NCBI RefSeq assembly: GCF_000027125.1
Contig: NC_017626.1
DNA length: 64,000 bases
Strand: one strand, 5' to 3'
From: Escherichia coli 042
GTDB taxonomy: Bacteria > Pseudomonadota > Gammaproteobacteria > Enterobacterales > Enterobacteriaceae
Under the pieces are notes generated by a model. The model saw nothing but the letters and a program-made list of their open reading frames with translations, did not search any database and had not been told where the DNA came from. Below are positions 1 through 43,429 of the stretch, piece after piece (position 1 is the first letter of the stretch; each line of letters begins with the position of its first letter). The position numbers were made by a program, and so were the translations under genes.

Positions 1-183
1 AACTTGTTCATTACTCAAGAATTCTTCGGCATGCGGGTCGATACGGACAATTCGGTAAAACTCAATACTCAGATAATGGGCATGCGCAACGGCAATTTCC
101 GCGGCTTTAGCACGAATGAGCGGATCTGCTTGTTCGACAAGCCCGGTCCACTCATCTTTCATTCTTTTAAAATACATCTCCAT
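1..183 (-). CDS. dosC: Diguanylate cyclase DosC (globin-coupled sensor), N-terminal 61 codons only; gene runs off the left edge
   Basis: Reverse complement of 183..1 translates MEMYFKRMKDEWTGLVEQADPLIRAKAAEIAVAHAHYLSIEFYRIVRIDPHAEEFLSNEQV, matching the DosC N-terminus from memory; ATG is cat at 181..183 on the + strand. Confidence 0.85.
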   Translation of the reverse strand, partial: MEMYFKRMKDEWTGLVEQADPLIRAKAAEIAVAHAHYLSIEFYRIVRIDPHAEEFLSNEQV

Positions 184-558
184 AATTCACACCCTTATAA
201 GGCTGGGAAAGCAGACGGAATCAAAACGAAACGCAACGTGCGAGGTCGACTAACTGCACCATATTCTCCTGAAATATGAAGATATACTGAAAACAAATAA
301 GCGACTTAGGACAGTTTCAATCTACGCTACTGTTCTTCAGAAGAGTATAGCCCATCGTAATTATTTTTCGGTGACAGCGAATATCGTATGTTTTTTCATA
401 TTCATACATTTTTATTAGGGGATTTATGACTGTTTAACTAAGTGTGGTTAATTGCGTAGTTAATTTGACTTAAGTAAGCATGATTACTAGTGGGATATTT
501 CAAGAGGGTAACAAGCCGGGGGAAAAGCACCGGCTTGTTACAAAGTAAGAATGGGAGT

Positions 559-1878
559 TTAACTGCCCCAACGACTTTGCAGATAGCTGACCGCTTGTTG
601 AGTCTGTGGCTTATTCAGATAGTCCTCACGGAACAAGATTGTGCCGCTAATTTCTGGCACGGCATCGTTAAGATCGAGCTGCTTTTTCAGTTCCGGTACG
701 CCGCCGTTAATCATCCAGTCTGGCTCTATTTTTGAAGGTTCACCCACTTTATAGAAGGCGATACCGATATACAGGCGGGTCCTGGTCGGTTTAACGACAT
801 CCGCCCACCATTTTGCCAAAACGTCATAACGTGCGGCACTCCGTGAGAACGGCCAGTAAATTTGGGGAGCAATGTAATCCAGCAATCCTTGTTCCACCCA
901 TCGACGGGTGTCAGCGTAGGATTCGTCATAGGCTGCCGCGCCTCGGGTATCGGAACCGAGCGGATCGTGTGATCGGTTACGCCACACGCCTGCCGGGCTA
1001 ACGCCAAATTCGACTTCCGGCTTAATGCTTTTAATGGTGTGCGATACCTTCGCAATTAACTGCTGAGTATTGTTGCGCCGCCAGTCTGCTTTTGACGCAA
1101 ATGCGCCTCCGTATTTGCGGTACGTTTCGTTATCATTTAGCCGTGAACCCGGTGACTCAGTATAGAAATAGTCGTCAAACTGCACGCCATCTACCGGATA
1201 GCGGGAAACCACTTCCGCGACTATTGATGTGATCCAGTCCTGAACTTCAGGGATGCCCGGGTCGAGGACAAAGCGATCGCCGGACGTTCTGATCCAGTCG
1301 CGGTGTTGCACATAGACGCTCGCTGGTTGTTGAGCCAGAGTGCTATTCAGTTCCCTGATAGTACCGGGCTTCGTATTAACCGATACGCGATAGGGGTTAA
1401 ACCATGCGTGTACTTTCATCCCACGCTTGTGGGCTTCGTCGAGCATGAATTGCAGCGGATCGTAACCTGGATTTTCACCAATCTTTCCGGTCATAAGATC
1501 GGACCACGGCAAAATTTTTGATGGCCACAGGGCGGTACCGTCCGGCTTGACCTGGAAAAAGACCGTGTTTATGCCGAGACGTTGCAGATGATCCAGTTTG
1601 TCGATCATCGCCTGTTGTTGTACACGGGCCCGGCTGGTGGGGTTACTAATGTTAACCGAGGAAACCGGTGGCCAGTCGAGGCGAGACACCGTGGCCAGCC
1701 AGATGCCACGCATCGGTTGTGACGATTGTTGCGTCGTGGCTGGTGGCTTTGAACCCGCTGGTGGTGTCACCATGGACTCTGGAGGCGTGTTTTTACAACT
1801 ACACAGTAAAAGTGCCAGTGCAACCAGTATCGCTGGTCTTCTAATCGCTAATTTCTCGTTTCGGGAGCAGATATCCAT
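559..1878 (-). CDS. yddW: YddW/DigH lipoprotein, glycoside-hydrolase-like
   Basis: 439-aa ORF with lipoprotein-type signal (LLLCSC); position between dosC and gadC as in K-12. Confidence 0.85.
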   Translation of the reverse strand: MDICSRNEKLAIRRPAILVALALLLCSCKNTPPESMVTPPAGSKPPATTQQSSQPMRGIWLATVSRLDWPPVSSVNISNPTSRARVQQQAMIDKLDHLQRLGINTVFFQVKPDGTALWPSKILPWSDLMTGKIGENPGYDPLQFMLDEAHKRGMKVHAWFNPYRVSVNTKPGTIRELNSTLAQQPASVYVQHRDWIRTSGDRFVLDPGIPEVQDWITSIVAEVVSRYPVDGVQFDDYFYTESPGSRLNDNETYRKYGGAFASKADWRRNNTQQLIAKVSHTIKSIKPEVEFGVSPAGVWRNRSHDPLGSDTRGAAAYDESYADTRRWVEQGLLDYIAPQIYWPFSRSAARYDVLAKWWADVVKPTRTRLYIGIAFYKVGEPSKIEPDWMINGGVPELKKQLDLNDAVPEISGTILFREDYLNKPQTQQAVSYLQSRWGS

Positions 1879-1952
1879 ATGTGCTGGTTTCCGGTAAACA
1901 GATGTGCGCTCATTCTCGTACTTATCCCGGTTAAGTCAATACGACAGCAAGC

Positions 1953-1985
1953 ACGAAAAAGGGAGCGATGAATTATCGCTCCCTT
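1953..1985 (-). terminator. Intrinsic terminator downstream of gadC
   Basis: Perfect hairpin agggagcgat-gaatt-atcgctccct (1960..1984) followed on the minus strand by a T-run (A-run 1956..1960 on +); 25 to 50 nt after the gadC stop. Confidence 0.7.
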
Positions 1986-2008
1986 ATCTTATAACCATTC
2001 AGACATGG

Positions 2009-3544
2009 TTAGTGTTTCTTGTCATTCATCACAATATAGTGTGGTGAACGTGCACGCGGGTGCAGGAAGAAGTGACCTTTTGGTGCGTTCTGACTGTTGA
2101 TTGGCTCCAGAGTGACGCCGGTATTCCCTTTGCCTTTACGATCATGAACAGCATAGAGAATAAAGGGCAGGGCAAGTACCACCAGGAAACTAACGACCAG
2201 TAATTCAACATACATATCGGTAGAGTCACCCTGGATGTTATCCGGCGGCAGGAAGGAAACAATAAACGCCATAATTGAAGTCAGCAGACCGACAACAGCC
2301 ACGACCAGTTTCACCCCTTTACCACCAGGGATATTAAATGTGCGTTTTAAGTCAGGATGTTTAAGAACCAACACAATGTAGCCAATAAACAGCATGAAAT
2401 AAGCACACAGATAAATCACCACCGTCAGCGCCAGTGCGATCAGGAAGGACATGTTGTTACCGCCACCGGTATTGGTGAGGATGATCAACGCGATAGAAGT
2501 AATCACCAGCTGCGAAATGACCAGCGTTACCGGTACGCCATTTTTGTTCATTTTAGCGAATGCTGCTGGCAGCAGGTTTTTCTGCGCTGTGACATACATC
2601 CCGCGAGAAGGACCAACAATCCAGGAGGCGATTTCCGCCAGAACACCCAGCAACAGCAGTGCGGAGATCACGCGAACCGTCCACTCAATTTCCGGTGCCA
2701 CATGGGACATCAGAACGGTAAAGGTTTGCATTACACCTGCGGAGAGGTTGATTTCATTACCCGGAATGACCATCGCAATAGACAAACCGCCAACAGAGCT
2801 TAAGCAGATTGCCGCCACCATCAGCAGTAACATAGCCAGTGGATAGTCGCGCCCTGGATTGCTCATTTCATTGACGTGGGTTGCGGAAGCTTCAACGCCC
2901 ATATAACTCAAAATGAAGGCAACAAATACAACCAGGGTGCCCACTTTAGAGAAGTCAGGGAAGAAGGTCTTCGAATCCATTTCGATAGCAACGGGGGCAC
3001 CGGAGTGCAGATAAATAGCCGCTAATGCGATCAAAATAAATGCAGGTAACAGGATACCGGCGAAGAAGCCAACTTTAGCAATTCGCGCCGTGTATTTCGT
3101 GCCACCAAACTGCGTTAATGCCAGCGCCCAAAGAATGATGAGTGCTGCAATAGTTTTGGTAATGGGGTCTTCATTCAGCGCTGGCCATTTCAGGATGTAG
3201 GAGAGTGCCCCTAACACGAAATAGAGCATCGGAATAAAACCAATGGCGATTTGCAGATAGCCAAATGAGATCGCTGCAAATCCCCACCTCGGCCCCAGAG
3301 TATTTGATACCCAGGCGAAGACACCACCTTCTTCCCAGCCGTCGACGGTGGCCATTTCCGCAGCACAAAGTCCCACGGGAATAAACCATAAAATCCCGCC
3401 TAATAGCAGGAAGAAGACTAATGAAAAGCCCGATGTTGCGAAGGTAGGGTATTCATAAACAGCCATTACCATCGATGCCGTTATGGCAAAGAATCCGAGT
3501 AATGTGAGCTGCTTAGCTTTACCTGTCTGTACTGATGTAGCCAT
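2009..3544 (-). CDS. gadC: Glutamate:GABA antiporter GadC
   Basis: 511-aa polytopic membrane ORF directly downstream of gadB; length and sequence match GadC. Confidence 0.93.
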
Positions 3545-3653
3545 ATTATCCCCCTAAAACGGTATTCCTGTCGGAACCGCACCTGTTTTGTTCTGAAGCG
3601 TATTCAGAACAATATTTTCCGTTGCTAATGCCAGTGAACAGACTTTGGAAATT

Positions 3654-3679
3654 GTCCCGAAACGGGTTCGTTTCGGGAC
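3654..3679 (-). other. Intercistronic stem-loop between gadB and gadC
   Basis: Perfect 10-bp inverted repeat gtcccgaaac / gtttcgggac with a 6-nt loop; no U-run follows on the coding strand, so not a canonical terminator. Confidence 0.45.
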
Positions 3680-3699
3680 ACCGTTACCGTTAAACGTTA

Positions 3700-5100
3700 T
3701 CAGGTATGTTTAAAGCTGTTCTGCTGGGCAATACCCTGCAGTTTCGGGTGGTCGCTGAGATATTTCAGGGAGGCTTTGTAGTCTTCCAGCAACAGTTCAG
3801 CAAAGTCCATTTCGAAGCCGCGACGACACATAATGCGCATCACCACGATGTCGGTGGCTTCACCGCCAAGAGTGAAGGCCGGAACCTGCCAGCCGCGCAG
3901 ACGCAGACGTTCAGAGAGGTCGTACAGGGTGTATCCCGGATCTTCACCATCTTTCAGTTTGAAGCAAACCGCCGGGATGCCTTCGTCCGGGCGACCGGTA
4001 CAGATGAACTCATACGGCCCCAGTTTGGCGATTTCATCCGCCAGATAAGCGGCAACCTGGTAAGAGGCGTTCTGTACTTTGGTATAGCCTTCACGACCGA
4101 GGCGCAGGAATTCATAGTACTGTGCAATTACCTGACCCGCCGGGCGGGAGAAGTTGATGGCGAAAGTCCCAATCTGACCACCGAGGTAGTCAACGTTGAA
4201 CACCAGTTCCTGCGGCAGCGCTTCTTCATCACGCCAGATAACCCAGCCGCAGCCCAGCGGAGCCAGACCGAATTTATGGCCTGAAGCACTGATCGATTTC
4301 ACACGCGGCAGGCGGAAGTCCCAGACGATATCCGGGGCGACGAACGGTGCCAGGAAGCCACCGCTGGCGGCGTCGATGTGCATGTCGATGTCGATACCGG
4401 TGTCGGCCTGGAATTTATCCAGCGCATCGTGCAGCGGTTGCGGGAACTCATAGTTACCGGTGTAGGTCACGCCGAAAGTCGGCACCACGCCGATGGTGTT
4501 TTCGTCGCAGGCTTCAATCATGCGTTTCGGGTCCATAAACAACTGACCGGGGCGCATAGGGATCTCACGCAGCTCCACATCCCAGTAGCGGGCGAATTTA
4601 TGCCAGCAGATTTGCACCGGACCGCACACCAGGTTTGGTTTATCCGTTGGTTTGCCTGCAGCTTCCATACGCTTGCGCCAACGCCATTTCATCGCCATCC
4701 CGCCGAGCATACAGGCCTCGGAAGAACCAATGGTGTTGGTGCCAACGGCCTGACCATTTTTCGGCGCAGGCGCATGCCACAGATCGGCAACCATGTTTAC
4801 GCAACGCAGGTCGATGGCTGCAGATTGCGGATATTCTTCTTTGTCGATCCAGTTTTTGTTAATGGATAAATCCATCAACTTGTGGACATTTTCGTCGTCC
4901 CAGGTCTGGCAGAAAGTGGCCAGGTTCTGACGAGCGTTGCCATCAAGATATAATTCGTCATTGATAATCTGAAATGCGACATCGTCGCGCATTTCGTGCA
5001 GCGGAAAACGTTTTGATTCTGCGATAGTGGAAATAGACTTCGCACCAAAACGTGAATCGAGTAGTTCCGACCTTAAATCCGTTACTAGCTTCTTATCCAT
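3700..5100 (-). CDS. gadB: Glutamate decarboxylase beta (PLP-dependent)
   Basis: ORF translation from [24 protein letters not shown] onward matches GadB (466 aa). True ATG is at 5098..5100; the track ORF begins 23 codons upstream. Confidence 0.93.
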
Positions 5101-5179
5101 TTTAAACTCCTTAAAATGATTGGATCGCATTAAAAAAGTAGGATTTATCGATAAAGTAAGCAAGTGCAAAGGACTCGTG

Positions 5180-5199
5180 TTTAAATAACAAAATCCTAA
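5180..5199 (-). promoter_or_regulatory. gad box (GadE/GadX binding element) of the gadBC promoter
   Basis: + strand tttaaataacaaaatcctaa is the exact reverse complement of the 20-bp gad box consensus TTAGGATTTTGTTATTTAAA; it lies 80 to 99 bp upstream of the gadB ATG. Confidence 0.85.
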
Positions 5200-5461
5200 T
5201 GTTATTTATCGTGAGATATTATGCGAATAATGTTTTTTCATTGAAAATCAATACATTATTGAATTATTGGGTGGTAGCAAGGTGTTTTGTGTTGTTATTT
5301 TTATGCACTTTCTACGCCTCCTGAATTATCACGTAAAAATCAGACCTTAAAATATCACTATTAGTACTTGGTTATTATTTTGAACGCATTTATAAAATTA
5401 TTACATAAAAATAGCGAATATTGATAAAATCCCCGCCAACGATGTGTTGACGGGGCTGTTA

Positions 5462-8257
5462 TTATTTTGGCAATAATACTCCGGTATAGGTATTCACCGG
5501 ATGAGAAAGATATTGTTTAACGGCAGTGTTAACATTCTCTACCGTCATTTGTTTCAATAATTGCTCCTGCTCAGTCCATGCTGCAGGATCGTCATATTGA
5601 ATAAGACTATTTACAATGGTGTTCGCTAATTGTTGAACGCTACGCTGTTGGATATCGAGGCTGCGCTGAACGTTTTGCTGGTATTCGTTCAGTTCTTGCT
5701 CACTGATCCCTTTAGCCAGACGCTTAACCATCACTTCATTCGCTAACGTTAACAGTTCATCATGTCGTTCCGGTTGACAAGTAAAAGCCAGCAAATGACT
5801 GATATCTTTGGCCTGAGGATCAACCGAGAGGCGAGAAGAAACGCTGTATGCCCCAGAGGCCTGTTCACGAATATTAACGCGTAGATCTTTTGCCAGTGCG
5901 ACGTTAAAAGCATCGAGCGCCATACGCGTCTCCAGATTAACCGGTGTCCGGGAATCATAACGCTTCCACTGTGAAACCTGTGCCACAGGTTCATTTTGTT
6001 CTTTTACAGTAACCGATGCGTTGTCCGTCGCGCGAGTTAATGGTTTACCTGCGGCTAATGGCGAATCAGAGTGTTTGATTGATCCTAAGTAAAGCGTAAT
6101 TAACGGCAGGAGTTTGTCTTCTGCGACATTACCGACAATGACAAACGTGATATCCGCTGGAGATGAAAACAACTGGCGATCGGCAGCCAGCGCATCTGCG
6201 GCAGTAAACTGTGCAATCTGATTTTCTTGCAGTAATTTCGTGCGGTCATCAGCATAGCGCGTCTCATACATCTGCTGGGCGAATTTCTCCGCTGGACGCT
6301 GGTCGAGCGTTTTCAACGCCTGAATTTGAGCATTTTGTAGCGATGCCCAAATATTATCGTTAATCGTGCTGTGGGTGATTCGCTGGTTAATCAACTGGAA
6401 ACCAGGTTCAGGGTTATTAGTCCGCGCGCTAACAGAGAGCAATGTATTCATGCCACTGACTTTACTGCTCAAGGTTACCGAGTTTTCCGCACTCCAGCGT
6501 TTCAGGCTGGAAGAGGAGAGTTCACCAACGCCGCTTCCGCTTACTGCTTTATTTGCCAGCGCGATAAGTGATTTTTGCTGCGCAGGGAAACTTAAATCGC
6601 CTTTATAAGATACGGCAGTAATTTGTAGCTTTTGCTCTTCACCCGCGGATTTTGCCAGAATAACCCTGGCACCATTGGAAAGTGTTAATGATGTCAGATT
6701 CTCAGCCAGCGTTTCTTTGCTGCTAATTTCCGCCTGTGGGTCAGCGTCTACTGTTAACGATAAATTTCTGCCTGGGAAGATGTAAGCCGCCAGCTTTTTG
6801 TTGGCGTACTCTTTTTCCAGCGCCAGGATAGCCGCAGGAGACAATGCTTTTTTGGCAGCAACCTCATTGTTTACCATTTGCTCCCAAAATGCATCCTGGT
6901 TCTTTCTTAACTGCTGCCATTTTTCCGCCAGACTTTGCACGGTAATTTGCTGCCACAGACGTTTCGAAAGTTGATATGTCTCTTCCGGCGACAAGAACGG
7001 CGTATTATTTAATGAGCTGGATGCCAGGCGACTGGTCAGCATACGTAAATCACGTTCAGCTTGCTGATCAACCGCATTTTTCAGCCAGGTGAGGCGGGTA
7101 GATTTGACATCATCGAGTTCTTCAGCAGAAAAACCATGCTGATCAATAGTTGCCAACTCTGCCATTAATGCATTCGCAGCATCCTGCATATTATCGTCTC
7201 GTGCATTTACACGGAAAAACAGCGACTGATAATCGGGTGCAATTTTAACGCTGCGCGCAGTGCCGCCAGAAATAGTCTTCAACTCGCCCGACTGTATGCG
7301 TTCCTGCAGACGCTGATTGAACAGCTGAACCAACATGCTCCATTCAGCTTGTTCGATAAAGCTTTGCTCATCGCTCACTTGCACCATTGGCAGGCGATAA
7401 TAGAGTGCGATGCCGTTCACCCGGTTTTCTTTATCATTAATGATATTAAAGCGCAGGTGGTTTTCGGCTTTTGTCGGCCAGACGCGATTTTCAGCTGCTT
7501 TGTTAGCCGGAAGCTTACTTAAATTATCCTTAATCAGCGCCAGCGCTTCTTTACTGTCGATATCGCCGACCACGATAAAGGTCATATTATTTGGTTGATA
7601 CCAGCGTTGATAAAATTGGCGCAATTGTGCCGGTGTGACCGTAGCGACAGTATCCATCACGCCGATAGGTTCACGGTCTAAATTACGGGTATTTGCCAGC
7701 AGGAAAGGGCGGCGCGCCTGAGAGGTGCGCCATTTCGCATCCTGATGGGCACGCCATTCCTCAGTAATTACGCCGCGTTCAGCGTCTACTTCGAGTTTTT
7801 CAAAGCTTGCGGCATTACTCCATTCACTAAAGATTGCCATCACTTGTTGCAGATTTTGTTTCTGCGTAGTCGGCAAACTCACCTGATACACCGTTTCGTC
7901 ATAGCTGGTATAGGCATTAACATCGCGACCAAAACGCAGGCCCATTGACTCAAATGTTTCGATGACTTTATTACCCGGCCATGTTTTTGTGCCGTTAAAC
8001 ATCATATGTTCTACAAAATGAGCCACGCCGCGCTCATTGTCCTCTTCCTGCAATGAACCGGTATGAATTTGCAGCCATAAATTTACCTGATCCTTTGGTT
8101 GAGCATGCGGATAAATCATATATCGCAAGCCATTGTCCAGTTGCCCGGTAATTAACTTTTCATCCTGCGGTAAGGCGGCGGCAATCAGTCGCCCGGGGAG
8201 CAACAGAGTTGCCACTAACGTCAGTAAGAAACAGAGGTTTCTCATAATTATCTCCAT
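5462..8257 (-). CDS. pqqL: M16-family zinc metallopeptidase PqqL
   Basis: HxxEH zinc motif (HFVEH) near the N-terminus; ~931 aa; start chosen at MEIIMRNLCF (track ORF begins 5 codons earlier). Confidence 0.88.
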   Translation of the reverse strand: MEIIMRNLCFLLTLVATLLLPGRLIAAALPQDEKLITGQLDNGLRYMIYPHAQPKDQVNLWLQIHTGSLQEEDNERGVAHFVEHMMFNGTKTWPGNKVIETFESMGLRFGRDVNAYTSYDETVYQVSLPTTQKQNLQQVMAIFSEWSNAASFEKLEVDAERGVITEEWRAHQDAKWRTSQARRPFLLANTRNLDREPIGVMDTVATVTPAQLRQFYQRWYQPNNMTFIVVGDIDSKEALALIKDNLSKLPANKAAENRVWPTKAENHLRFNIINDKENRVNGIALYYRLPMVQVSDEQSFIEQAEWSMLVQLFNQRLQERIQSGELKTISGGTARSVKIAPDYQSLFFRVNARDDNMQDAANALMAELATIDQHGFSAEELDDVKSTRLTWLKNAVDQQAERDLRMLTSRLASSSLNNTPFLSPEETYQLSKRLWQQITVQSLAEKWQQLRKNQDAFWEQMVNNEVAAKKALSPAAILALEKEYANKKLAAYIFPGRNLSLTVDADPQAEISSKETLAENLTSLTLSNGARVILAKSAGEEQKLQITAVSYKGDLSFPAQQKSLIALANKAVSGSGVGELSSSSLKRWSAENSVTLSSKVSGMNTLLSVSARTNNPEPGFQLINQRITHSTINDNIWASLQNAQIQALKTLDQRPAEKFAQQMYETRYADDRTKLLQENQIAQFTAADALAADRQLFSSPADITFVIVGNVAEDKLLPLITLYLGSIKHSDSPLAAGKPLTRATDNASVTVKEQNEPVAQVSQWKRYDSRTPVNLETRMALDAFNVALAKDLRVNIREQASGAYSVSSRLSVDPQAKDISHLLAFTCQPERHDELLTLANEVMVKRLAKGISEQELNEYQQNVQRSLDIQQRSVQQLANTIVNSLIQYDDPAAWTEQEQLLKQMTVENVNTAVKQYLSHPVNTYTGVLLPK

Positions 8258-8301
8258 GCGAAAACCGGGCAAATTTACCCGGTTAAGTAAAATCCGAACT
8301 A

Positions 8302-10674
8302 TTAAAATTTCATGCTGACATCAAGCCAGAAAGTACGGCCACTGGCGTAGGTCGCCACACCGGTATTCGTTGTATCAACCGCGGTTTTGCTATCCAGTAC
8401 ATTGAGAATATCGGCACTGATCGTCAGGTTTTGTTGTTTCAGAAATTGTGGCGTCCAGGACAAGCGGGTGTCCCAGGTCAGGCTGCTATCCAGTTTTTCG
8501 TCAACATACTGCTTGTAATCTGAATATTCGCTGATGTATTGCGCATTCGTCTTACCCAGGATAATGCGAGCTTTACGCGCTTCTTGCCAGGTCAGCGTAT
8601 TCGCCCACACCAACCCGCTCGGTTGATGCGTGAAATCCATGTTTAAGGAGATCTTTAGTGGATTATTAAAATCCGCCACTGGAACGCTATCGTAAGAGAC
8701 CAGATTACCGTTATAAACCACCCGGTTATCACCGGTATTGCTCTCCTCATAACCATTGTTTAACGACAAGTTGCCCTTGCTCTTGATATAGCTAAAGACA
8801 ATTTGCGGGTTAATATCTACCTGGCTGATATGCAGGGGTTCGGCCAGTTCAAAACTGAGGTTGAACGAATGCGTTTTGGTTTTGCCGTCGTTGTTATATT
8901 CAGTAATGGTGGTTTTAGTCGCGCTGTCGGTACGACTGCTTTTGCTGATTTGATCATGCGCTTCACGGTAAACATAGTTTGCGCGCGCAATAACGTTCTT
9001 ACCGATTTTTTGCTGCAATCCCATTGCCAGTTCATCGTTATAAGGCGTTTTCAAATCCTGATAACGCGTCAGGGTTTTATTGCCTGATACCGATTCCGTC
9101 CAGCTATTGCGGATATCACGTAATCCCATATCAAGAATATTCCCGCCATAGTAACGGTTATAACCGGCGGTAATCATTGAGGTTTGATCAGCAAAAATAT
9201 CCCATTCCGTCATAAAGCGCGGGGAGATATTGTGGTTTGACAGATAGTTGTCATAGTCATACCGCACGCCGGGCATTAATGACACATTACGCCAGCTAAT
9301 ACGATCCGCCATATACAGCGTGTAGTTGTCAATTCCCAGGCTGCCTTTACCTTTATGGTAAATGGTATGGTTAGTTTTCTTTCCGGCAGCATTAATCACA
9401 TAGGATTCAGACTGGTTATGGCGTTCAGTCCATGCATCGGAATAGATGTATTCCGCGCCGAAGTAGGGTTGATGCGAAACATTACCCACGGTGAATTTTT
9501 GCCAGTCCAGGCGTGTTTTGAAGGTGTAATTATCTACAGCCTGGGAAATGTGTCCTAATCCGCCACGGGTGCAACGCCCTGTAATATCACCATATGTACA
9601 TGAAAGTTCGGTGTACCAGATGTCATGATCGTGACGGGTATAATCACTAATATGATCCCAACCAACGGTGGTACGTAGTTTGGCCCATGCGAGCTGCGTA
9701 TCCATATCCCATGCCAGACCGTAGGATTTATTACCCATTTCGCGATCAGACTGCGGGAAGGTGCTGGTATTATAATCACGACTGGAGCCGGTATATTTTA
9801 ATGTTAAATCGTGGGTAAAGCGGTCGCTGGCAAACCAGGTAAATTTGCTCACTGCGGTATCGATAACGTTTTTATACTGTGCCCGACCGGCGACAATGCC
9901 GTCATTCGAAACATAATCCGCGCGGGTGATATCAGACTGGCGGCGCGATAAACCGGCGGTAACGCCGAAGTTATCAGCGAGTTCCTGATTAAACGCCAAA
10001 GTATAAAAGTTCTTTTTAAAATCTGGAGAGTAATAAGTACTTCCTGAAGAACCTTGATTAAATGCGCTCTTGTTATTCTCATCGATATGCGATGTTAACC
10101 AGTCCGAACGCGTAGTGCGATAACCCAGTTCCACGCTGCTATCATCAGCATTGAAGCGTTTGATCTTTGCATCAATTACCCCGCCATTGAAGCGACCAAA
10201 TTCAACCGGCACAAAACTGTCATAAAGCGTCACATTGTCCAGTAAGCTGACATCTAGATAATACCCCTGTGACATCCCGCTAATATTGGTTGCACTACTG
10301 GCATCGGACTCATTCGCTGGGTTCAGGTTATTAGTTGCACTAATACCATCAATCAAATAGGCATTCTGGTAGGGCGACGCACCGTGAATAGAGATTTTCT
10401 CCGGGCGAATATCTCCCTGGTTCAACGAGGTACTTTGCGTTGAATCCATGCGCACAGCAGGGTTGGTTCTCAGCAGATCGCTGATATTGCCATTCCCGGT
10501 CGGTAAACGCTCGATGCTTTCACTGGTGTAATGCGTATTGCCGTTTACGGGTACAGGGACAGGAGCATAGACCGTCATCTCTTCAAAAACATGCATGTAC
10601 ATGTTTTTGTCATCGACGGCCTGCGCCACATCAGCGCCACATAAAATGACGCCAGGAATAAGAACTCGCTTCAT
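8302..10674 (-). CDS. yddB: TonB-dependent outer-membrane receptor YddB
   Basis: 790-aa ORF with signal peptide and C-terminal aromatic residue (…LDVSMKF); sits between pqqL and yddA. Confidence 0.88.
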   Translation of the reverse strand: MKRVLIPGVILCGADVAQAVDDKNMYMHVFEEMTVYAPVPVPVNGNTHYTSESIERLPTGNGNISDLLRTNPAVRMDSTQSTSLNQGDIRPEKISIHGASPYQNAYLIDGISATNNLNPANESDASSATNISGMSQGYYLDVSLLDNVTLYDSFVPVEFGRFNGGVIDAKIKRFNADDSSVELGYRTTRSDWLTSHIDENNKSAFNQGSSGSTYYSPDFKKNFYTLAFNQELADNFGVTAGLSRRQSDITRADYVSNDGIVAGRAQYKNVIDTAVSKFTWFASDRFTHDLTLKYTGSSRDYNTSTFPQSDREMGNKSYGLAWDMDTQLAWAKLRTTVGWDHISDYTRHDHDIWYTELSCTYGDITGRCTRGGLGHISQAVDNYTFKTRLDWQKFTVGNVSHQPYFGAEYIYSDAWTERHNQSESYVINAAGKKTNHTIYHKGKGSLGIDNYTLYMADRISWRNVSLMPGVRYDYDNYLSNHNISPRFMTEWDIFADQTSMITAGYNRYYGGNILDMGLRDIRNSWTESVSGNKTLTRYQDLKTPYNDELAMGLQQKIGKNVIARANYVYREAHDQISKSSRTDSATKTTITEYNNDGKTKTHSFNLSFELAEPLHISQVDINPQIVFSYIKSKGNLSLNNGYEESNTGDNRVVYNGNLVSYDSVPVADFNNPLKISLNMDFTHQPSGLVWANTLTWQEARKARIILGKTNAQYISEYSDYKQYVDEKLDSSLTWDTRLSWTPQFLKQQNLTISADILNVLDSKTAVDTTNTGVATYASGRTFWLDVSMKF

Positions 10675-10702
10675 TTATTTTTATCTCCGTACAGCAGGGC
10701 TT

Positions 10703-12397
10703 TTATTGTTTTTTTAAAACCGCGCTAATGTCACAAATATCATCGGCCAGGTTCCAGACACCGGGTTGATGTGTAACCATAATGACGCCGCTTGAGGGTA
10801 GTTTTTCACGCACTAAACGCAGTAAGCGGATAGCCTCTTGTTCCTCAAAATGAGAGGTAGTTTCGTCAAGAAATATCCATTTCGGACGTCGTAAAATTAA
10901 TCGTGCCAGCGCGATACGTTGTTTTTCGCCGCTGGAAAGAATATCGCCCCAGCGATCGTGGTCATGAATACGCGCAGCCAATTTCCCCAGACCAACCTGA
11001 TGCAGTACTTCGCTCAACGATTTATCGTCTACGGACAGGGGAAGTGCTTTACAAATTATCTCTTTCAGTAAGCCGGTTTTGATTAACGGTGTTTGTGACA
11101 CATACCAACTGTCAGCAGGAGAAGAAATATCACCTTTAAACCACGGCCAGCAGTGGGATAATGTTTTAAGCAGTGTGGTTTTTCCCGCACCTGAGTAACC
11201 TTTCAGTAATAGCCATTTGCCTGGCGAAACATGAAAGTTTAGGTTCTCTAATATGATCTTATTATCAGGAGTACGAATACTCGCGTCAGCCACTTGTACC
11301 GCATGTTGGCAATTTTTAGGCTTATTCGTAGGGCGCTGTTCGGTGAGTTGATGGAACTCATACAAGCGATCGATAACCGCAGCCAGTTCAGCAAGTTCAT
11401 CATATTTATAAATAAACCAGCTTAAATTGTTCGATACCAGCATAAATGCCTGGCGCGATTTCATCAGTCCGCCCAGATTGATCTGTCCGCTAATAAACTG
11501 CGGCAATAACAGAAAGTAGGGAAGAACGCTAAGCGAGCGCGAATAAATATTCTGCCAGTAATCAAGCCACCGCTGACGATTCATTAAACGATGCCAGTTA
11601 TCTTTAATGGTATGAAAATTGTCGCTCAACTCCTGGCGTTGTAGAGACTCAGCATTGCTTAGCGCAATCAGTTCAGCCTGCTTATTATGCTGCACAAGAT
11701 TAGTTCGAAATGTCGCTTCGCTACGTTGTTTTTCCACATTAAGCGGACGAATACGTTTACCAACCTTATGAGTAAATAAAGTTCCACCGATCACAATGAG
11801 CACGACGGTATAGACCATATACCCCTGGATATTCCATTCTGTTCCACCAACAGTGAATGAGAGCGTACCCGCGCTTTGCCAAAGAATAACGGTAAAGGTG
11901 ATCAACATGCTAAGTGACTGGATGAAGCCAAATGAAAGACTGAGCGTTTTGCTGATCAGTAAGAGAATGTCTTCAGCGATACGTTGGTCAGGGTTATCTG
12001 TATTTTTATGCTCACCGTAGATCTGCGTGAAGTAGTAGTTTTTATCTGCAAACCAGCGATTAAGGTAGTAATCTGTTAACCATTCGCGCCAGCGAATAGT
12101 CAGTAGTTTAATTAACCATGTTTTGTTTACGGATATTAATACAAAGATCCCCAGCAGGGCAGGGAACCAAAGGACAAGCTGCCAAAGCTTATCGGTTTCT
12201 TTCTGGCTTAGCGCATTGAAAAAATCATTATTCCAGTCGTTTAACCAGACCTGAATTTTAACCACGCCAAGGATCATGGCGAGGATAATAATGATTAACA
12301 GCACTGAAGTTTTATTATTCTTACGCAGCCAAAAGGGCTTCAGCAGACAGAGATACTTTGCTATCAACATACGAAACGTAATGGGAATGGTTATCAT
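10703..12397 (-). CDS. yddA: ABC transporter, fused permease and ATPase (SbmA/BacA-like), YddA
   Basis: N-terminal TM region plus Walker A GYSGAGKT and signature LSSGEKQR; the exact start codon is uncertain by a few codons. Confidence 0.85.
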   Translation of the reverse strand: MITIPITFRMLIAKYLCLLKPFWLRKNNKTSVLLIIIILAMILGVVKIQVWLNDWNNDFFNALSQKETDKLWQLVLWFPALLGIFVLISVNKTWLIKLLTIRWREWLTDYYLNRWFADKNYYFTQIYGEHKNTDNPDQRIAEDILLLISKTLSLSFGFIQSLSMLITFTVILWQSAGTLSFTVGGTEWNIQGYMVYTVVLIVIGGTLFTHKVGKRIRPLNVEKQRSEATFRTNLVQHNKQAELIALSNAESLQRQELSDNFHTIKDNWHRLMNRQRWLDYWQNIYSRSLSVLPYFLLLPQFISGQINLGGLMKSRQAFMLVSNNLSWFIYKYDELAELAAVIDRLYEFHQLTEQRPTNKPKNCQHAVQVADASIRTPDNKIILENLNFHVSPGKWLLLKGYSGAGKTTLLKTLSHCWPWFKGDISSPADSWYVSQTPLIKTGLLKEIICKALPLSVDDKSLSEVLHQVGLGKLAARIHDHDRWGDILSSGEKQRIALARLILRRPKWIFLDETTSHFEEQEAIRLLRLVREKLPSSGVIMVTHQPGVWNLADDICDISAVLKKQ

Positions 12398-12420
12398 TAG
12401 CGAAAATTGATTGTGCCATC

Positions 12421-12445
12421 CAATGATTATCTATGGCAATGATTT
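12421..12445. promoter_or_regulatory. Candidate Fur box in the yddA-yddB-pqqL promoter
   Basis: caATGATtATCtatggcAATGATtt, 24 to 48 bp upstream of the yddA start, resembles the Fur consensus GATAATGATAATCATTATC; the operon encodes a TonB-dependent receptor. Confidence 0.35.
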
Positions 12446-12687
12446 ACTGATGAAATTTATTTAAGTGTCATTTAACATTTTGAAATATAAAGAAATTTTT
12501 TATTTTCAATGGTTACGATTATGCTATTGATAATCAAGGGTATTGCTAATGCCCTGACGCATGCCACGTAAGCCAGAATTTTCGCAAGGGAAGATGATGA
12601 TGACGAAACACCCAACAGGAATTTATGTCGGGTGCTTTGTTAAGGTCATAAGACGGAGGCTAAGACTGGAGCAAAGAAGGAGCGTTA

Positions 12688-13845
12688 TTAATTATTCTCC
12701 ATTTGTTTTGCAACATCCATAATGTGGTAAAGCGGTACTCTGTTCTTGGCTAACTCCACCATGGCGTTCATATAAGGTACCATGGTTGAAAAAAGGATTT
12801 TATAACCTTCGCAAAAATAGGAAACAGTCTCATTGTTTACTTTAGTAATACGATGCTTAGGGCAACCGCCATTGCAGATAGGTTTATATGCACATTGCTG
12901 ACATTTCGCTGAAATCCGTTTTTTTTGCGCTGTCAGTTGTACACTGTTCATCGTTTTAAGTTCAGATTTATTAATGTTTCCAATTTTGTACTGTGGATAG
13001 ACAAAATGGTCGCATTCGTAAATGTCTCCATTACTTTCAACAACCAGATTATCCTTGCAGGACTCCTGGAAAATACAACTGGTATGCCCATTCCCCAAAA
13101 AACGGCTGACAAAACTTTCAAACTGACGGATGAAAATTTCACCCACATCGTTTTTAACCCATTGCATAAAAATGGTCGACATAAACTTGCCATAAGCCGT
13201 AGGAGGCACAGAAAAATCAATGATACGGAATGTGTTCTCACTATGACCACTGAAATCAATATTCGGCGTCCCGGTTTCGAGCAATTCGATAAATTGCATA
13301 TGTTTACTGCCGATAGATTTTAAAAAATGATAAACCTCAAGAGGGTAATGGACATTAACGTTATTAATGACGGTTAACGTATTAAACTCTACTTGATATG
13401 ATTTCAGACGCTCGATGGCTGCTATCACTTTTGCAAAAGTACCGTTACCAGAATTACTGCGTCTGTAACGGTCATGTAGCTCCTGGGGTCCATCGATCGA
13501 GATACCAACCAGAAACTCATGTTCTTTGAGAAAGGCACACCATTCATTATTCAATAAAATGCCATTCGTTTGTAATGCATTAAAAATACGTTTTTGGCCT
13601 GCATAGCGTTGTTGATAGTGAATAACTTTACGGAAAAAATCCAGACCAGCCAGAGTGGGTTCACCGCCTTGCCACGTAAAATAGACCTGATTGCCAGACG
13701 CTGCGATATATTGTTTGATGAACTCTTTCAGAGTGCTGTCATCCATCCATTTTTCATGAGTAAACTGCGACTCTTTTTCAAGGTAAAAACAGTAATCACA
13801 TTTGAGATTACATTGAAAACTGGAGGGCTTGGCTGTAACGTGCAT
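12688..13845 (-). CDS. ydeM: Radical-SAM anaerobic sulfatase-maturating enzyme homolog
   Basis: CNLKCDYC (CX3CX2C) radical-SAM motif at the N-terminus and a C-terminal Cys-rich SPASM-like region ([18 protein letters not shown]); start taken at MHVTAKP. Confidence 0.85.
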
Positions 13846-13896
13846 CGCTATCTCGCTCAATAAGGCGGCGGAAAAATCCGCCGCATGAAGGTTTAG

Positions 13897-15579
13897 TTAT
13901 TTCGCTTCGCTTAGTGCTTTCTTGATATTGTTAAACTTCTCCTGATTTACCTCGCTAAGCGGTGGCTGGCTGCTGTCGATAAACTCTCTTACCACGCCTT
14001 GCATCTCTTTAACGACCTGTGGATTGGCGGCGGCAAGGTTATCTTTTTGCTGTAGATCCGTCAGTTTGTATAGACCTAACTGATTGTTTTCTACTGTATA
14101 GACAAGCGAATAATCGTTATTTCTCACCGTATAAGAGAATTGGCTTAAGTCCTCGGTATTGGGGTTATGCGGGTAATCGTCTGACTGATGGCGGACAAAT
14201 TTGTGGTAATTATCCCAGAATGGAATATTTTCCTCGTCAAACCAGTGAGAATAAGAGGTTATCCAGGTCAGATTTTTATGTGGCTCGCCTTGTTTCTTAT
14301 CTTGCAACCACGGCAGCAAGGAAACGCCATCCAGCTTAAGGTCTTTTGGAATGCTGATATCGGCTGCATCAAGAGCTGTCGGGTAGAAATCCATTGCGGA
14401 AATCAGCTTGTCATAATTACCTGGTTGAAGTTTTCCTTTCCACCACATAAACATTGGGGTGTGAGTACCGCCAGGATAAGTCTGACTCTTATAGCCTTTT
14501 TGCGCCCCGTTCAGCGGCAGAGGACCATCGATAACCGCACCATTATCGGAGGTAAAGAGAATAATAGTATTGTCATACTGTCCGTTTTTCTTCAGTTGTT
14601 CGAGAATGCGTTTTACACCCTGATCAACAGAATAAACGGAAGCGTAGTAGTTATCTGCTGTTTGACTACCGGTATTAAATTGCTTCTGATATTGCTCCGG
14701 TGCAGGATTATCATTTGGCAGGTGCGGAGCATTATAAGCCAGGTAAAGCATAAAAGGCTGGTCAAGTGTTTTGGCACGATCAACAACGCCAATTGCCTCA
14801 TCGGTTAACTGATCGCTGATATAACCTTTTGCGGGGACGCGTTCACGATTTTTGAACAGTGAAGGGGAGTTGTAATATGCCGTTCCTGCAGCGTGGAATC
14901 CCATAAAGTAATCAAAGCCACGGTTTTGAGGTTGCCATTCTTCCGCAGAAAATGTGGTGAAGTTGTCATGATAGTCACGCGTTTGTTTATCTTCCGGTAC
15001 TGGCACATTACTGATTTTTGACAAGTGCCATTTACCTACTGCTGCAGTGTAATAACCATGATTCTGGAATAATTCAGGCAAGAAAGTTTCTGTTAGCGGA
15101 ATACCATCCTGAGCATCGGTATTGGAATAGACACCAAAGCGGGCGGGCGCTCGACCGGTCATTATTGCGGCGCGGGAGGGGCCGGAAACACCGTGCGCCA
15201 CATAGCCGTTAGTAAAACGTACGCCTTCATCCATTAATGAAAGGAGCGTCGGCGTTGATTTTTGCGCAGCTTCAATGGCTTTATCTATCCCTATTTTGTA
15301 GGTATCGACAACTTCACGATTTTCCATTGTTTTTGGGTCAAAAGATTCCTTATCAAAAGGAAGTTGTCCATAACCAAGATCATCCATGGTCAGTACGATA
15401 ATATTTGGCTTTCCTTTGGTACTGTATTCAGTCGGCGTAAAGTCTGAGAAAGCAACGTTTGTTTTGGTTGCTTTCAGCTTTACATCATCTGCCGCATGAG
15501 CAGCAAATGCAGCCATACCAGATGCCAGTATCAAAGATATCGAGGTACTTACGACACTTTTCTTTAATGCAGACTTCAT
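13897..15579 (-). CDS. ydeN: Ser-type sulfatase YdeN (secreted)
   Basis: Signal peptide then sulfatase signature S-G-P-S-R-AAIM-TG (Ser type, needs a maturase); start taken at MKSALKK. Confidence 0.85.
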   Translation of the reverse strand: MKSALKKSVVSTSISLILASGMAAFAAHAADDVKLKATKTNVAFSDFTPTEYSTKGKPNIIVLTMDDLGYGQLPFDKESFDPKTMENREVVDTYKIGIDKAIEAAQKSTPTLLSLMDEGVRFTNGYVAHGVSGPSRAAIMTGRAPARFGVYSNTDAQDGIPLTETFLPELFQNHGYYTAAVGKWHLSKISNVPVPEDKQTRDYHDNFTTFSAEEWQPQNRGFDYFMGFHAAGTAYYNSPSLFKNRERVPAKGYISDQLTDEAIGVVDRAKTLDQPFMLYLAYNAPHLPNDNPAPEQYQKQFNTGSQTADNYYASVYSVDQGVKRILEQLKKNGQYDNTIILFTSDNGAVIDGPLPLNGAQKGYKSQTYPGGTHTPMFMWWKGKLQPGNYDKLISAMDFYPTALDAADISIPKDLKLDGVSLLPWLQDKKQGEPHKNLTWITSYSHWFDEENIPFWDNYHKFVRHQSDDYPHNPNTEDLSQFSYTVRNNDYSLVYTVENNQLGLYKLTDLQQKDNLAAANPQVVKEMQGVVREFIDSSQPPLSEVNQEKFNNIKKALSEAK

Positions 15580-15981
15580 AAATGTTCCTCTTCTTATTGT
15601 ACTTAATTCCAAAGTAATTTTACGAAGAGAAATAAGTGAATGTAAGTGAAGTTAGTCACATAAAGAGATAGCAGATTTAGCTAAAAAAAGGGAAATAACA
15701 GTCCATGAAGCGTTGACATTACTTTCTATTCTACTAAGTAATTTCTCGACGATAAACAACTAATCTATTGATATTTAATAAATTATTGTATTTTACTGAC
15801 AAAATGCCGAATTGAGATCATAAATAATCATGCAACAGGTTATGCAAATGCATAAATATGTGATGAATGTCACTTATTTATTTCAATAAATATATCGCCT
15901 AAAAACAACGCGGGGCAGGGAATGGCTGCCCCATTTTAATTTTTACGTAGGGTGCGTGGTTGACTACTCGTTAGCAAATAA

Positions 15982-16743
15982 TCAAATAGCTAAAGCATTC
16001 ATCGTGTTGCCCTTATTCATACCCGTGTGCCTTTGACAACGGTACTCCTTAGAAACTCTCTTTGGACTGTTGCCAAAATGTTTGCGGAACGCATAAATAA
16101 AATAAGATGTACTCGCATAACCACATTGTTCGGCAATTTTATTGACTGAACCTTCTACGCGTATCAAATTTTTTGCGTGCTGCATTCTGGCATCTAAAAG
16201 AATCTGTGAGAATGTCGTTTGCTCTTGCTTTAGTTTTTTCTTCAACAGGCTTTCACTAATGTACAGGCAGTCACAAATATCTTTCAGCTTCCATGGGTGC
16301 GCCAGCTTCATGTTGACAATATTTCTAACTTTCCCAGAAACGGATAGCACACCGTTAGTTAATAGTGTAATGAAACCTTTGCATGCGGCAAAAATAGACA
16401 GGCAAGAAAAAAGCAAAAGTTCTGAAAAATTATGATGATTGCGTTCTTCCGAGTTGAGATAAGCAATCATTTCATTAAGCAATCCAGTCGGTACATTTGA
16501 AGCACGTAAAAACTTCGCAGGAACAGGCACCGTCACTGTCTGGATGTTAGTGCATTGTAGATATTTTTTAATGGTATTTTCATTAAATCCGATTTCTTTG
16601 AAATGCCGCTCATAAGGTTCAAAATGCGTACGAACAGCGTTATCTACCATCAGGATCTCGCCGTCAGAGAAGGCGTAATCTTTATCTAAAATGTTAGCGT
16701 TGAAGGCATGATGAATAAATATAACAGAACAAACGAGCGACAT
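15982..16743 (-). CDS. ydeO: AraC-family acid-resistance regulator YdeO
   Basis: 253-aa ORF with C-terminal AraC-type HTH; immediately downstream of safA. Confidence 0.88.
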   Translation of the reverse strand: MSLVCSVIFIHHAFNANILDKDYAFSDGEILMVDNAVRTHFEPYERHFKEIGFNENTIKKYLQCTNIQTVTVPVPAKFLRASNVPTGLLNEMIAYLNSEERNHHNFSELLLFSCLSIFAACKGFITLLTNGVLSVSGKVRNIVNMKLAHPWKLKDICDCLYISESLLKKKLKQEQTTFSQILLDARMQHAKNLIRVEGSVNKIAEQCGYASTSYFIYAFRKHFGNSPKRVSKEYRCQRHTGMNKGNTMNALAI

Positions 16744-16817
16744 TTTATCTCCTTAAAACAATAAAGTTTTTATCGATACTTTTTTAACATTTCACATTTA
16801 TAATTTGCTGTTTATTT

Positions 16818-17015
16818 TCAGTCTTGCAAACTATTGATAATGAAATGTGTAAGATCCCTTGCAATGCGACCCATTTCTGAAATACCCAGCTGATCAATTG
16901 CCGAAAACATGGCTATCAACGTAAGTGTCAGTAATAAGACAACCACAATTACAGACATGATTTCTTTATAGTTGTCTCTTTGCGTGATTTTGTTTTTCAC
17001 TGTGGTCGCATGCAT
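16818..17015 (-). CDS. safA: Two-component connector SafA (B1500), small membrane protein
   Basis: 65-aa ORF MHATTVKNKITQRDNYKEIMSVIVVVLLLTLTLIAMF… with one TM helix; position upstream of ydeO. Confidence 0.8.
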   Translation of the reverse strand: MHATTVKNKITQRDNYKEIMSVIVVVLLLTLTLIAMFSAIDQLGISEMGRIARDLTHFIINSLQD

Positions 17016-17126
17016 TTCAAATATGTTTATTTAGCGGATAACGTTAAAAATCGTTAATCAGTATGCTTAATATAACAGGCTGGAGAATAGAGGAAATAGG
17101 ACTGGCGCTTCAGTACTGAGCGGAGT

Positions 17127-43426: not shown

Positions 43427-43429
43427 ATA

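What the first reader, a model, noticed from the sequence alone, without database searches (positions are those of the whole stretch)
5180..5199. Exact 20-bp gad box upstream of gadB
The reverse complement is identical to TTAGGATTTTGTTATTTAAA, the GadE/GadX element centred near -63 of the gadA and gadB promoters, so the acid-resistance promoter appears intact. The surrounding 5101..5461 region is very AT-rich, consistent with H-NS silencing.
Basis: partly seen in the sequence, partly recalled or inferred. Interest (0 to 1): 0.2.

Follow-up and report, generated by a model that had tools for sequence, protein, structure and literature searches.

The report
Canonical GAD box of gadBC promoter
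This is the well-known 20-bp activator site (GAD box) in front of the Escherichia coli acid-resistance operon gadBC, present and correctly placed in this strain, so it is an ordinary, already explained feature.

Summary
The minus strand of window 5180..5199 reads TTAGGATTTTGTTATTTAAA. It is the only match in the 64 kb window even with 3 mismatches allowed, against about 2e-7 exact matches expected by chance.

The box lies 99 nt upstream of the ATG (5100) of an intact gadB, followed by an intact gadC and preceded by pqqL, as in K-12. From -94 relative to the start site through the gadB ATG, the window is base-for-base identical to K-12. With K-12's 27-nt leader the box spans -72..-53, centre -62.5.

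This matches published data: a site centred at -63, 16 bp upstream of the -35 element, and a GadE ChIP-exo peak at -62.5 at gadBC.

The box is invariant in 13 diverse E. coli promoters. It also occurs at the same distance upstream of gadA/gadB-type genes in other Escherichia species, although the flanks diverge.

- The box binds a GadE/RcsB heterodimer. GadX is mapped further upstream (-184 to -268) and at +66.
- H-NS silencing is plausible (29.9% GC, two 9/10 H-NS motif matches) but was not shown here.

Verdict: already known, low interest. One side observation: a hypervariable spacer at -190..-95.

The parts
5180..5199 (-). GAD box TTAGGATTTTGTTATTTAAA, at -72..-53 (centre -62.5) relative to the inferred start site. 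Activator site for the GadE/RcsB heterodimer.
   Evidence: Exact and unique in the window. Identical to the K-12 gadB and gadA boxes. Invariant in 13 E. coli promoters. Conserved across Escherichia species. Function taken from PMC2887963 and ChIP-exo data in PMC4918353.
5158..5163 (-). -35 element TTGCTT, which begins 16 bp downstream of the box.
   Evidence: Read from the sequence. The 16-bp spacing agrees with PMC2887963. Identical to K-12.
5139..5155 (-). Spacer element in the -35/-10 gap. It contains the RcsB-box homologue (CGATAAATCCTA; limits approximate), the 12-bp palindrome TTTATCGATAAA (5144..5155), and two overlapping 9/10 matches to the H-NS motif tCGATAAATT.
   Evidence: Sequence. 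Motif matches at 5142..5151 (-) and 5148..5157 (+). The RcsB box just upstream of -10, conserved in gadB apart from a C for G at its left end, is described. The H-NS motif, including the homologous gadA site CGGATAAATC, is described.
5135..5140 (-). -10 element TACTTT, 17-bp spacer from the -35 element.
   Evidence: Sequence; identical to K-12. The hexamers, at 3/6 each by my reading, are too weak for the sigma-70 consensus scan, which did not report this promoter. That fits dependence on an activator.
5127..5127 (-). Inferred transcription start (within about 1 nt), 27 nt upstream of the ATG.
   Evidence: Inferred, not mapped in this strain. The box centre is 89.5 nt upstream of the ATG. The K-12 ChIP-exo table gives -62.5 from the start site for the GadE peak, which implies a 27-nt leader. 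The sequence here is identical to K-12.
5107..5112 (-). Shine-Dalgarno sequence AAGGAG of gadB.
   Evidence: Sequence.
3700..5100 (-). gadB coding sequence, 466 aa, intact. One change against K-12 (Q5L).
2009..3544 (-). gadC coding sequence, 511 aa, intact (I417V and A473G against K-12). Second gene of the operon the box controls.
5291..5415 (-). Upstream zone homologous to the K-12 GadX ChIP-exo peaks at -184, -225 and -268. A separate element from the GAD box.
   Evidence: Peak positions from PMC4918353 Table S3, transferred by alignment to K-12. Within this zone the window differs from K-12 at 6 positions: -297, -244 and four at its promoter-proximal edge, -190 to -182.
5222..5317 (-). Hypervariable spacer (-190..-95) between the GadX zone and the GAD box.
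   Evidence: 16 of 96 differences against K-12, compared with 2 of 265 in the rest of the intergenic region (Fisher p = 2e-8), and 4-5% at four-fold degenerate sites of gadC, gadB and pqqL. 33% of columns vary in -198..-73 among 13 strains.
5431..5455 (-). Terminator-like hairpin of pqqL followed by a T-run. Marks the upstream limit of the gadB regulatory region.
   Evidence: pqqL stop at 5462.

Best explanation
Window 5180..5199 (minus strand) is the canonical GAD box of the gadBC promoter in an Escherichia coli-type chromosome.

Shown here: the exact 20-bp sequence; its fixed position 99 nt upstream of the gadB ATG and 16 bp upstream of a TTGCTT -35 element; base-for-base identity with K-12 from -94 to the ATG; intact gadB and gadC; and invariance of the box within E. 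coli and across Escherichia species, although the flanks diverge.

Inferred from published K-12 work: when GadE is produced (acid, stationary phase, the EvgA-YdeO-GadE cascade), a GadE/RcsB heterodimer binds the box at about -63 and activates RNA polymerase at a weak core promoter. This drives synthesis of glutamate decarboxylase B and the glutamate/GABA antiporter GadC. [quoted passage not shown] GadX/GadW act from sites further upstream. H-NS probably adds to repression of this AT-rich region in exponential growth.
For: - Exact, unique match; chance expectation about 2e-7.
- Synteny digH-gadC-gadB-pqqL as in K-12.
- K-12 carries the same box at the same distance from the ATG. Window and K-12 are identical from -94 to the ATG.
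- gadA carries the identical 20-mer, although the 16 bp between the box and -35 differ.
- Literature (PMC2887963): the box is centred 63 bp upstream of the start site and 16 bp upstream of -35; RcsB plus GadE protect -50..-76; GadE alone does not bind; a G-to-C change in the box abolishes activation.
- GadE ChIP-exo peak at gadBC at -62.5, scored as an activator site. gadB falls about 87-fold in a gadE deletion (log2 = -6.44).
- 0 of 20 box columns vary among 13 diverse E. coli, against 33% in the adjacent spacer, giving P about 3e-4 for such a run.
- Of 11 exact occurrences across 100,044 species genomes, 8 are in Escherichia, each 99-100 nt upstream of a gadA/gadB-type ATG.
- GadB and GadC are intact.
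Against: - No protein binding, transcription start or expression was measured in this strain.
- The trans-acting genes gadE and rcsB lie outside the window, so their presence could not be checked.
- The RcsB/GadE footprint was done on the gadA promoter, not gadB. The authors state only that the boxes are conserved in gadB.
- The S/N ratio of the GadE ChIP-exo peak at gadBC is modest (2.78).
- Gene conversion between gadA and gadB (chimeric allele in strain SCU-308) could account for part of the box's conservation.
Confidence: 0.93

Rival explanations
1. The 20-mer is mainly a GadX/GadW (AraC-type) site, as the first reader's label 'GadE/GadX element' implies.
For: GadX shifts a gadB promoter fragment spanning -173..+77 in vitro, which includes the box (PMC3050690). 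GadX activates gadBC weakly in vivo (less than 2-fold).
Against: GadX ChIP-exo peaks at gadBC are at +66, -184, -225 and -268, none over -72..-53, whereas the GadE peak is exactly there. From my own memory of Tramonti et al. 2006 (J Bacteriol 188:8118), which is not held in the library, the shared GadX/GadW 44-bp site at gadBC is centred at -220.5. Loss of gadX lowers gadB only about 1.5-fold, against about 87-fold for gadE.
Confidence: 0.04
2. The box is conserved mainly as a by-product of gene conversion between gadA and gadB, not by selection for factor binding.
For: gadA and gadB are near-identical paralogues, and the box lies at the upstream edge of their shared sequence. In E. coli SCU-308 the gadB locus is gadB-type upstream of the box and gadA-type downstream of it, so a conversion junction lies at the box.
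Against: The 16 bp between the box and -35 differ strongly between gadA and gadB, yet the box is identical, so conversion does not homogenise the neighbourhood as a block. The box is exact in E. coli, E. albertii, E. whittamii and Escherichia sp. E1V33, while both flanks diverge. Published mutagenesis shows the box is needed for activation.
Confidence: 0.02
3. It is a chance match in AT-rich intergenic DNA with no regulatory role.
For: The region is 29.9% GC. Three exact copies occur by chance inside unrelated coding DNA of Lentisphaeria and Bacteroidales MAGs.
Against: About 2e-7 matches are expected in this window. Position, orientation and neighbouring genes are the same as in K-12. The box is invariant across strains and species at a fixed distance from the ATG.
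Confidence: 0.005

Closest known systems
GAD box of the E. coli K-12 gadBC promoter (Castanie-Cornet & Foster 2001; Ma et al. 2003; Castanie-Cornet et al. 2010)
   Same: Identical 20 bp, identical distance to the ATG (99 nt), identical sequence from -94 to the ATG, and the same flanking genes.
   Different: Only the upstream spacer (-190..-95) differs, by 16 substitutions and no indels. GadB carries Q5L.
GAD box of the gadA promoter (the site actually footprinted with RcsB plus GadE)
   Same: Same 20-mer, same -35/-10 geometry, and a similar RcsB box and leader.
   Different: The 16 bp between the box and -35, and everything upstream of the box, are unrelated. From memory, the GadX/GadW site lies at about -110 in gadA and about -220 in gadBC. 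The window locus is gadB, not gadA: it is linked to gadC and pqqL and starts MDKK.
RcsB / RcsAB boxes (NarL/FixJ-type response-regulator sites)
   Same: The authors note that the left half of the GAD box resembles an RcsB half-site, and RcsB is an obligate partner at the box.
   Different: The GAD box needs GadE as the second subunit. The true RcsB box of this promoter is a separate, low-affinity, repressive site next to the -10 element.
GadX/GadW 42-44 bp sites of the acid fitness island (Tramonti et al. 2006, 2008)
   Same: Same regulon and same promoter region.
   Different: A different, longer motif bound by AraC-type proteins. At gadBC it maps upstream, with ChIP-exo peaks at -184 to -268, not at the box.

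Membership tests
GAD box (GadE/RcsB activator site of gadA/gadBC) | 20-bp sequence TTAGGATTTTGTTATTTAAA, including the conserved G needed for binding | tested here: met
   20/20 match at 5180..5199 on the minus strand. Identical to the K-12 gadB and gadA boxes.
GAD box (GadE/RcsB activator site of gadA/gadBC) | Centred about 63 bp upstream of the transcription start and 16 bp upstream of the -35 element | tested here: met
   There are 16 bp between the box and TTGCTT. The box spans -72..-53 with a 27-nt leader, matching PMC2887963 and the ChIP-exo position of -62.5. The start site is transferred from K-12 and was not mapped in this strain.
GAD box (GadE/RcsB activator site of gadA/gadBC) | Located upstream of a glutamate decarboxylase gene (gadA or gadBC), in the same orientation | tested here: met
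   Intact gadB (3700..5100) and gadC (2009..3544) lie downstream on the same strand.
GAD box (GadE/RcsB activator site of gadA/gadBC) | Bound by the GadE/RcsB heterodimer and required for activation | not testable with these tools
   Known for K-12 gadA in vitro and in vivo and for gadBC by GadE ChIP-exo. No binding data exist for this strain.
GAD box (GadE/RcsB activator site of gadA/gadBC) | The genome encodes the trans-factors gadE and rcsB | not testable with these tools
   Neither gene is in the part of the window annotated by transfer from strain 2012C-4502 (window about 1..53900). The last ~10 kb was not annotated. In K-12 both genes lie elsewhere on the chromosome (my own knowledge).
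H-NS-silenced promoter region | AT-rich relative to the surrounding genome | tested here: met
   29.9% GC against 47.2% for the window; lowest 0.43% of 361-bp windows.
H-NS-silenced promoter region | Contains high-affinity H-NS motif(s) tCGATAAATT | tested here: met
   Two overlapping 9/10 matches at 5142..5157. The homologous gadA site CGGATAAATC was one of the footprinted sequences used to derive the motif. The evidence is weak: the window holds 14 such matches against 7 expected.
H-NS-silenced promoter region | H-NS occupancy and derepression in an hns mutant through direct binding | not testable with these tools
   The paper read here routes H-NS control of the glutamate pathway through the RcsB-P/GadE complex, with gadA standing in for gadBC. 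gadB/gadC are absent from the H-NS target list in Table S5 of PMC4918353. H-NS ChIP supplements were not available.
GadX/GadW binding site | Overlaps mapped GadX/GadW occupancy at gadBC | tested here: not met
   GadX ChIP-exo peaks are at +66, -184, -225 and -268, and GadW was not detected at gadBC. The box is at -72..-53.

The most novel reading that the evidence does not exclude
The box itself is textbook. The most novel reading not excluded concerns the 96-bp spacer just upstream of it (window 5222..5317, -190..-95). This spacer diverges 16.7% from K-12, against 4-5% at four-fold sites of the flanking genes, and 33% of its columns vary across E. coli, yet its length is kept. It might be a strain-specific tuning element under diversifying selection or recombination. 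For example, it could change intrinsic bending, looping between the upstream GadX/GadW site and the promoter, or H-NS occupancy. That would set strain-specific levels or cell-to-cell noise of gadBC expression.
Probability: 0.12. Interest if true: 0.3.

Novelty: already known. Interest (0 to 1): 0.05.

Why it matters
It matters little beyond annotation. The result confirms that this strain keeps the cis-element, core promoter and coding sequences of the main glutamate-dependent acid-resistance operon, so it is expected to be GadE-inducible like K-12. The useful outcomes are three: the corrected factor assignment (GadE/RcsB rather than GadE/GadX), a clear conservation footprint for the box within E. 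coli and across the genus, and a pointer to an unusually variable spacer upstream.

Tried and rejected
- **Primary papers on GadX/GadW and H-NS at gadBC.** I tried to read Tramonti 2006 (PMC1698215), Tramonti 2002 (PMC135039) and Waterman & Small 2003 (PMC165754). None is held. A full-text search for '220.5' together with gadBC, GadX and GadW found nothing. The -220.5 GadX/GadW site and the -121 bend therefore rest on my memory only.
- **Direct H-NS ChIP evidence at gadB.** No supplements are held for PMC3064808 or PMC3686432, and the main text of PMC3064808 does not mention the gad genes.
- **Sigma-70 consensus scan.** It did not report the real gadB promoter. Its hexamers TTGCTT and TACTTT match only 3/6 each by my reading, which I take as a weak, activator-dependent promoter rather than evidence against a promoter. 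The hits the scan did report in the region are at chance level (5 found against 3.1 expected).
- **Small ORFs in the intergenic region, and the 489-aa TTG-extended gadB ORF.** I rejected these as chance reading frames in AT-rich DNA. The annotated start is the ATG at 5100.
- **Rfam scan of the window.** No RNA family was found near the box.
- **gadA rather than gadB.** Rejected on synteny and the N-terminus.
- **Chance match.** Rejected on the expected count and conservation.

Full report
**1. The observation**

Reading the minus strand of the window gives ...AACA TTAGGATTTTGTTATTTAAA CACGAG... with the 20-mer at 5199..5180. A pattern search finds this as the only match in 64 kb even with 3 mismatches allowed. 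From base composition, about 2.4e-7 exact matches are expected.

The stretch 5101..5461 is 29.9% GC against 47.2% for the window. That places it in the lowest 0.43% of 361-bp windows. The stretch also includes the GC-rich terminator-like hairpin of pqqL at 5431..5455.

**2. The locus**

All of the following genes are on the minus strand.
- A 466-aa ORF starts at the ATG at 5100 ([21 protein letters not shown]...).
- It is followed by a 511-aa ORF at 2009..3544 ([11 protein letters not shown]...).
- It is preceded by a pqqL-type gene ending at 5462.
- K-12 MG1655 has the same order, digH-gadC-gadB-pqqL, as does the annotated E. coli strain 2012C-4502, whose gene coordinates coincide with the window ORFs.
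- GadB differs from K-12 only by Q5L, and GadC by I417V and A473G. Neither has an internal stop.

The locus is therefore gadBC, not gadA.

The window is E. coli-like but matches no complete RefSeq E. coli genome closely. The best hit is 99.2% identical over 24 kb. Only 33 of 5,408 records are at least 99% identical over the 451-bp promoter query.

**3.

The 361-bp intergenic region aligns to K-12 without gaps. K-12 has the box at the homologous place. Every base from -94 (relative to the start site) to the gadB ATG is identical.

The promoter reads as follows in window coordinates, minus strand:

| Element | Coordinates | Note |
|---|---|---|
| GAD box | 5199..5180 | |
| Gap | 16 bp | |
| -35, TTGCTT | 5163..5158 | |
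| Spacer | 17 bp | contains ATCGATAAATCC |
| -10, TACTTT | 5140..5135 | |
| Inferred start site | about 5127 | |
| Shine-Dalgarno, AAGGAG | 5112..5107 | |
| ATG | 5100 | |

The box runs from 99 to 80 nt upstream of the ATG. With the 27-nt leader this is -72..-53, centre -62.5.

**4. Published evidence on function**

Castanie-Cornet et al. 2010 (PMC2887963) report the following.
- The GAD box is a 20-bp consensus centred 63 bp upstream of the gadA and gadBC start sites, 16 bp upstream of the -35 element.
- RcsB and GadE together protect -50..-76.
- GadE alone does not bind. Earlier reports that it did are attributed to contaminating RcsB.
- The heterodimer binds with an apparent constant of about 10 nM.
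- A G-to-C change in the box abolishes binding and GadE-dependent activation.
[quoted passage not shown] It is conserved in gadB except for C in place of G at its left end. This matches CGATAAATCC in the window.

Seo et al. 2015 (PMC4918353, Tables S1-S4) report the following.
- The GadE ChIP-exo peak at gadBC is at 1570144-1570175, listed as -62.5 from the start site and scored as an activator site.
- This value equals the box centre computed here from the 27-nt leader.
- By my own conversion (+1,975 bp between the two K-12 genome versions, from memory), the peak is centred on the 20-mer, extending 6 bp on each side.
- gadB expression falls from 2,532 to 29 FPKM in a gadE deletion (log2 = -6.44), but only to 1,670 in the file-4 deletion strain, which I take to be gadX (log2 = -0.60).
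- GadX peaks at gadBC lie at +66, -184, -225 and -268, and GadW was not detected there.

The label 'GadE/GadX element' should therefore read 'GadE/RcsB element'. GadX acts from further upstream. From my memory of Tramonti et al. 2006, which I could not read, the shared GadX/GadW 44-bp site at gadBC is centred at -220.5. GadX does shift a -173..+77 gadB fragment in vitro, so weaker proximal contacts are not excluded.

**5. Comparative evidence gathered here**

I aligned 13 gadB promoters: the window, K-12 and 11 strains drawn from across the identity range. A twelfth fetched strain, SCU-308, carries a chimeric allele and is treated separately in section 7. The box is exact in all 13 and always 99 nt from the ATG.

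| Region (relative to start site) | Variable columns |
|---|---|
| GAD box | 0 of 20 |
| -36..+26 | 0 of 63 |
| Box to -35 | 2 of 16 |
| Spacer -198..-73 | 42 of 126 (33%) |
| Putative GadX/W site | 7 of 44 |

At the spacer's rate, a run of 20 invariant columns has P of about 3e-4.

A scan of one genome for each of 100,044 species found 11 exact copies.
- Eight are in Escherichia: E. coli, a second E. coli-labelled species representative (strain E69), E. albertii, E. whittamii and Escherichia sp. E1V33.
- Each of the eight lies 99-100 nt upstream of a gadA-type (MDQK.../MEQK...) or gadB-type (MDKK...) start codon, although both flanks diverge.
- The other three lie inside unrelated coding DNA of Lentisphaeria and Bacteroidales MAGs with no gad gene. 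I take these as chance matches.

This is the pattern expected of a functional protein-binding site.

**6. H-NS**

The composition claim is correct. The -35/-10 spacer also holds a perfect 12-bp palindrome, TTTATCGATAAA (5155..5144). It gives two overlapping 9/10 matches to the H-NS motif tCGATAAATT. The homologous gadA sequence CGGATAAATC was one of the footprinted sites used to derive that motif (Lang et al. 2007, PMC2094087). An 8/10 match, ACGATAAATA, sits at 5212..5203 just upstream of the box.

This makes H-NS contact plausible but does not prove it.
- The window holds 14 matches with at most 1 mismatch, against 7 expected.
- Krin et al. 2010 route H-NS control of the glutamate pathway through the RcsB-P/GadE complex and its regulators, with gadA standing in for gadBC.
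- gadB/gadC are not among the H-NS targets in Table S5 of Seo et al..
- I could not obtain H-NS ChIP tables.

**7. Rivals**

- A chance match is excluded by the expected count and by conserved synteny and spacing.
- A GadX site is contradicted by the ChIP-exo positions.
- Conservation purely through gadA/gadB gene conversion has some support. In strain SCU-308 the gadB locus is gadB-type upstream of the box and gadA-type downstream of it, including the MDQKLLTDFR N-terminus. But the 16 bp between the box and -35 differ strongly between the paralogues while the box does not. The box is also kept across species with diverged flanks.
- Natural loss does occur. In strain 4/4 an IS1 next to hipA replaces the whole promoter. 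'Intact' is therefore a real, checkable statement, and it holds here.

**8. Side observation**

Of the 18 differences from K-12 in the intergenic region, 16 fall within -190..-95 (window 5222..5317). That is 16.7% divergence, against 2 of 265 elsewhere in the region (Fisher p = 2e-8). Four-fold degenerate sites show 4.1-5.1% divergence in gadC, gadB and pqqL. There are no indels against K-12. Among the 13 strains the few 1-bp indels largely offset each other, so overall length stays within 1 bp. The cause is open: relaxed constraint in AT-rich DNA, recombination of old haplotypes, or selection on bending, looping or H-NS occupancy.

**9. Verdict**

The feature is already known and fully explained by K-12 work. 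Interest is low.

Noticed in passing
window 5222..5317 (-190..-95 relative to the gadB start site): A hypervariable patch between the upstream GadX zone and the GAD box. It has 16 of 96 differences against K-12, compared with 2 of 265 in the rest of the intergenic region (Fisher p = 2e-8) and 4-5% at four-fold sites of the flanking genes. 33% of columns in -198..-73 vary among 13 E. coli strains, with length essentially preserved.
   Followed up: partly
window 5144..5155 (palindrome); motif matches 5142..5157: A perfect 12-bp palindrome, TTTATCGATAAA, lies in the -35/-10 spacer of the gadB promoter. It gives two overlapping 9/10 matches to the H-NS motif tCGATAAATT and coincides with the RcsB-box homologue.
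   Followed up: partly
L014 about 1516..1640 (E. coli SCU-308, gadB locus): A chimeric promoter. It is gadB-type upstream of the GAD box and gadA-type downstream of it, including a GadA-type N-terminus (MDQKLLTDFR). This indicates gadA-to-gadB gene conversion with a junction at the box.
   Followed up: partly
L015 1288..2011 (E. coli strain 4/4): An IS1 next to hipA directly abuts gadB. The whole gadB promoter, including the GAD box, and pqqL are missing, so this is a natural promoter-loss allele.
   Followed up: no
L024, L025, L027 (Lentisphaeria and Bacteroidales MAGs): Exact copies of the 20-mer lie inside unrelated coding DNA with no gad gene nearby. I take them as chance matches in a 298-Gb collection.
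   Followed up: yes
window 58545..58757 (-): A full-length match to Rfam RF01407 (STnc560, an Hfq-binding sRNA) at 276 bits. It is the only Rfam family at gathering score in the window.
   Followed up: no
window about 15980..19540 (-): By collinearity with the annotated strain 2012C-4502, the window also carries ydeO, safA and ydeP, genes of the EvgA-YdeO-GadE acid-resistance cascade. Their intergenic regions are among the lowest-GC segments of the window: 15468..15999, 16673..17079 and 19517..19920.
   Followed up: no
window 1..224 and 28479..33797: These stretches are not collinear with strain 2012C-4502, which best matches the promoter itself. The window has about 2.7 kb extra near the autotransporter pseudogene and lsrK area. 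Overall identity to that strain is only about 98%, and the best complete E. coli genome is 99.2% over 24 kb, so the source strain is not in the complete-genome set.
   Followed up: no
window 5086..5088 (gadB codon 5); gadC codons 417 and 473: GadB carries Q5L (CAA to CTA), shared with strain 2012C-4502. GadC carries I417V and A473G relative to K-12.
   Followed up: no
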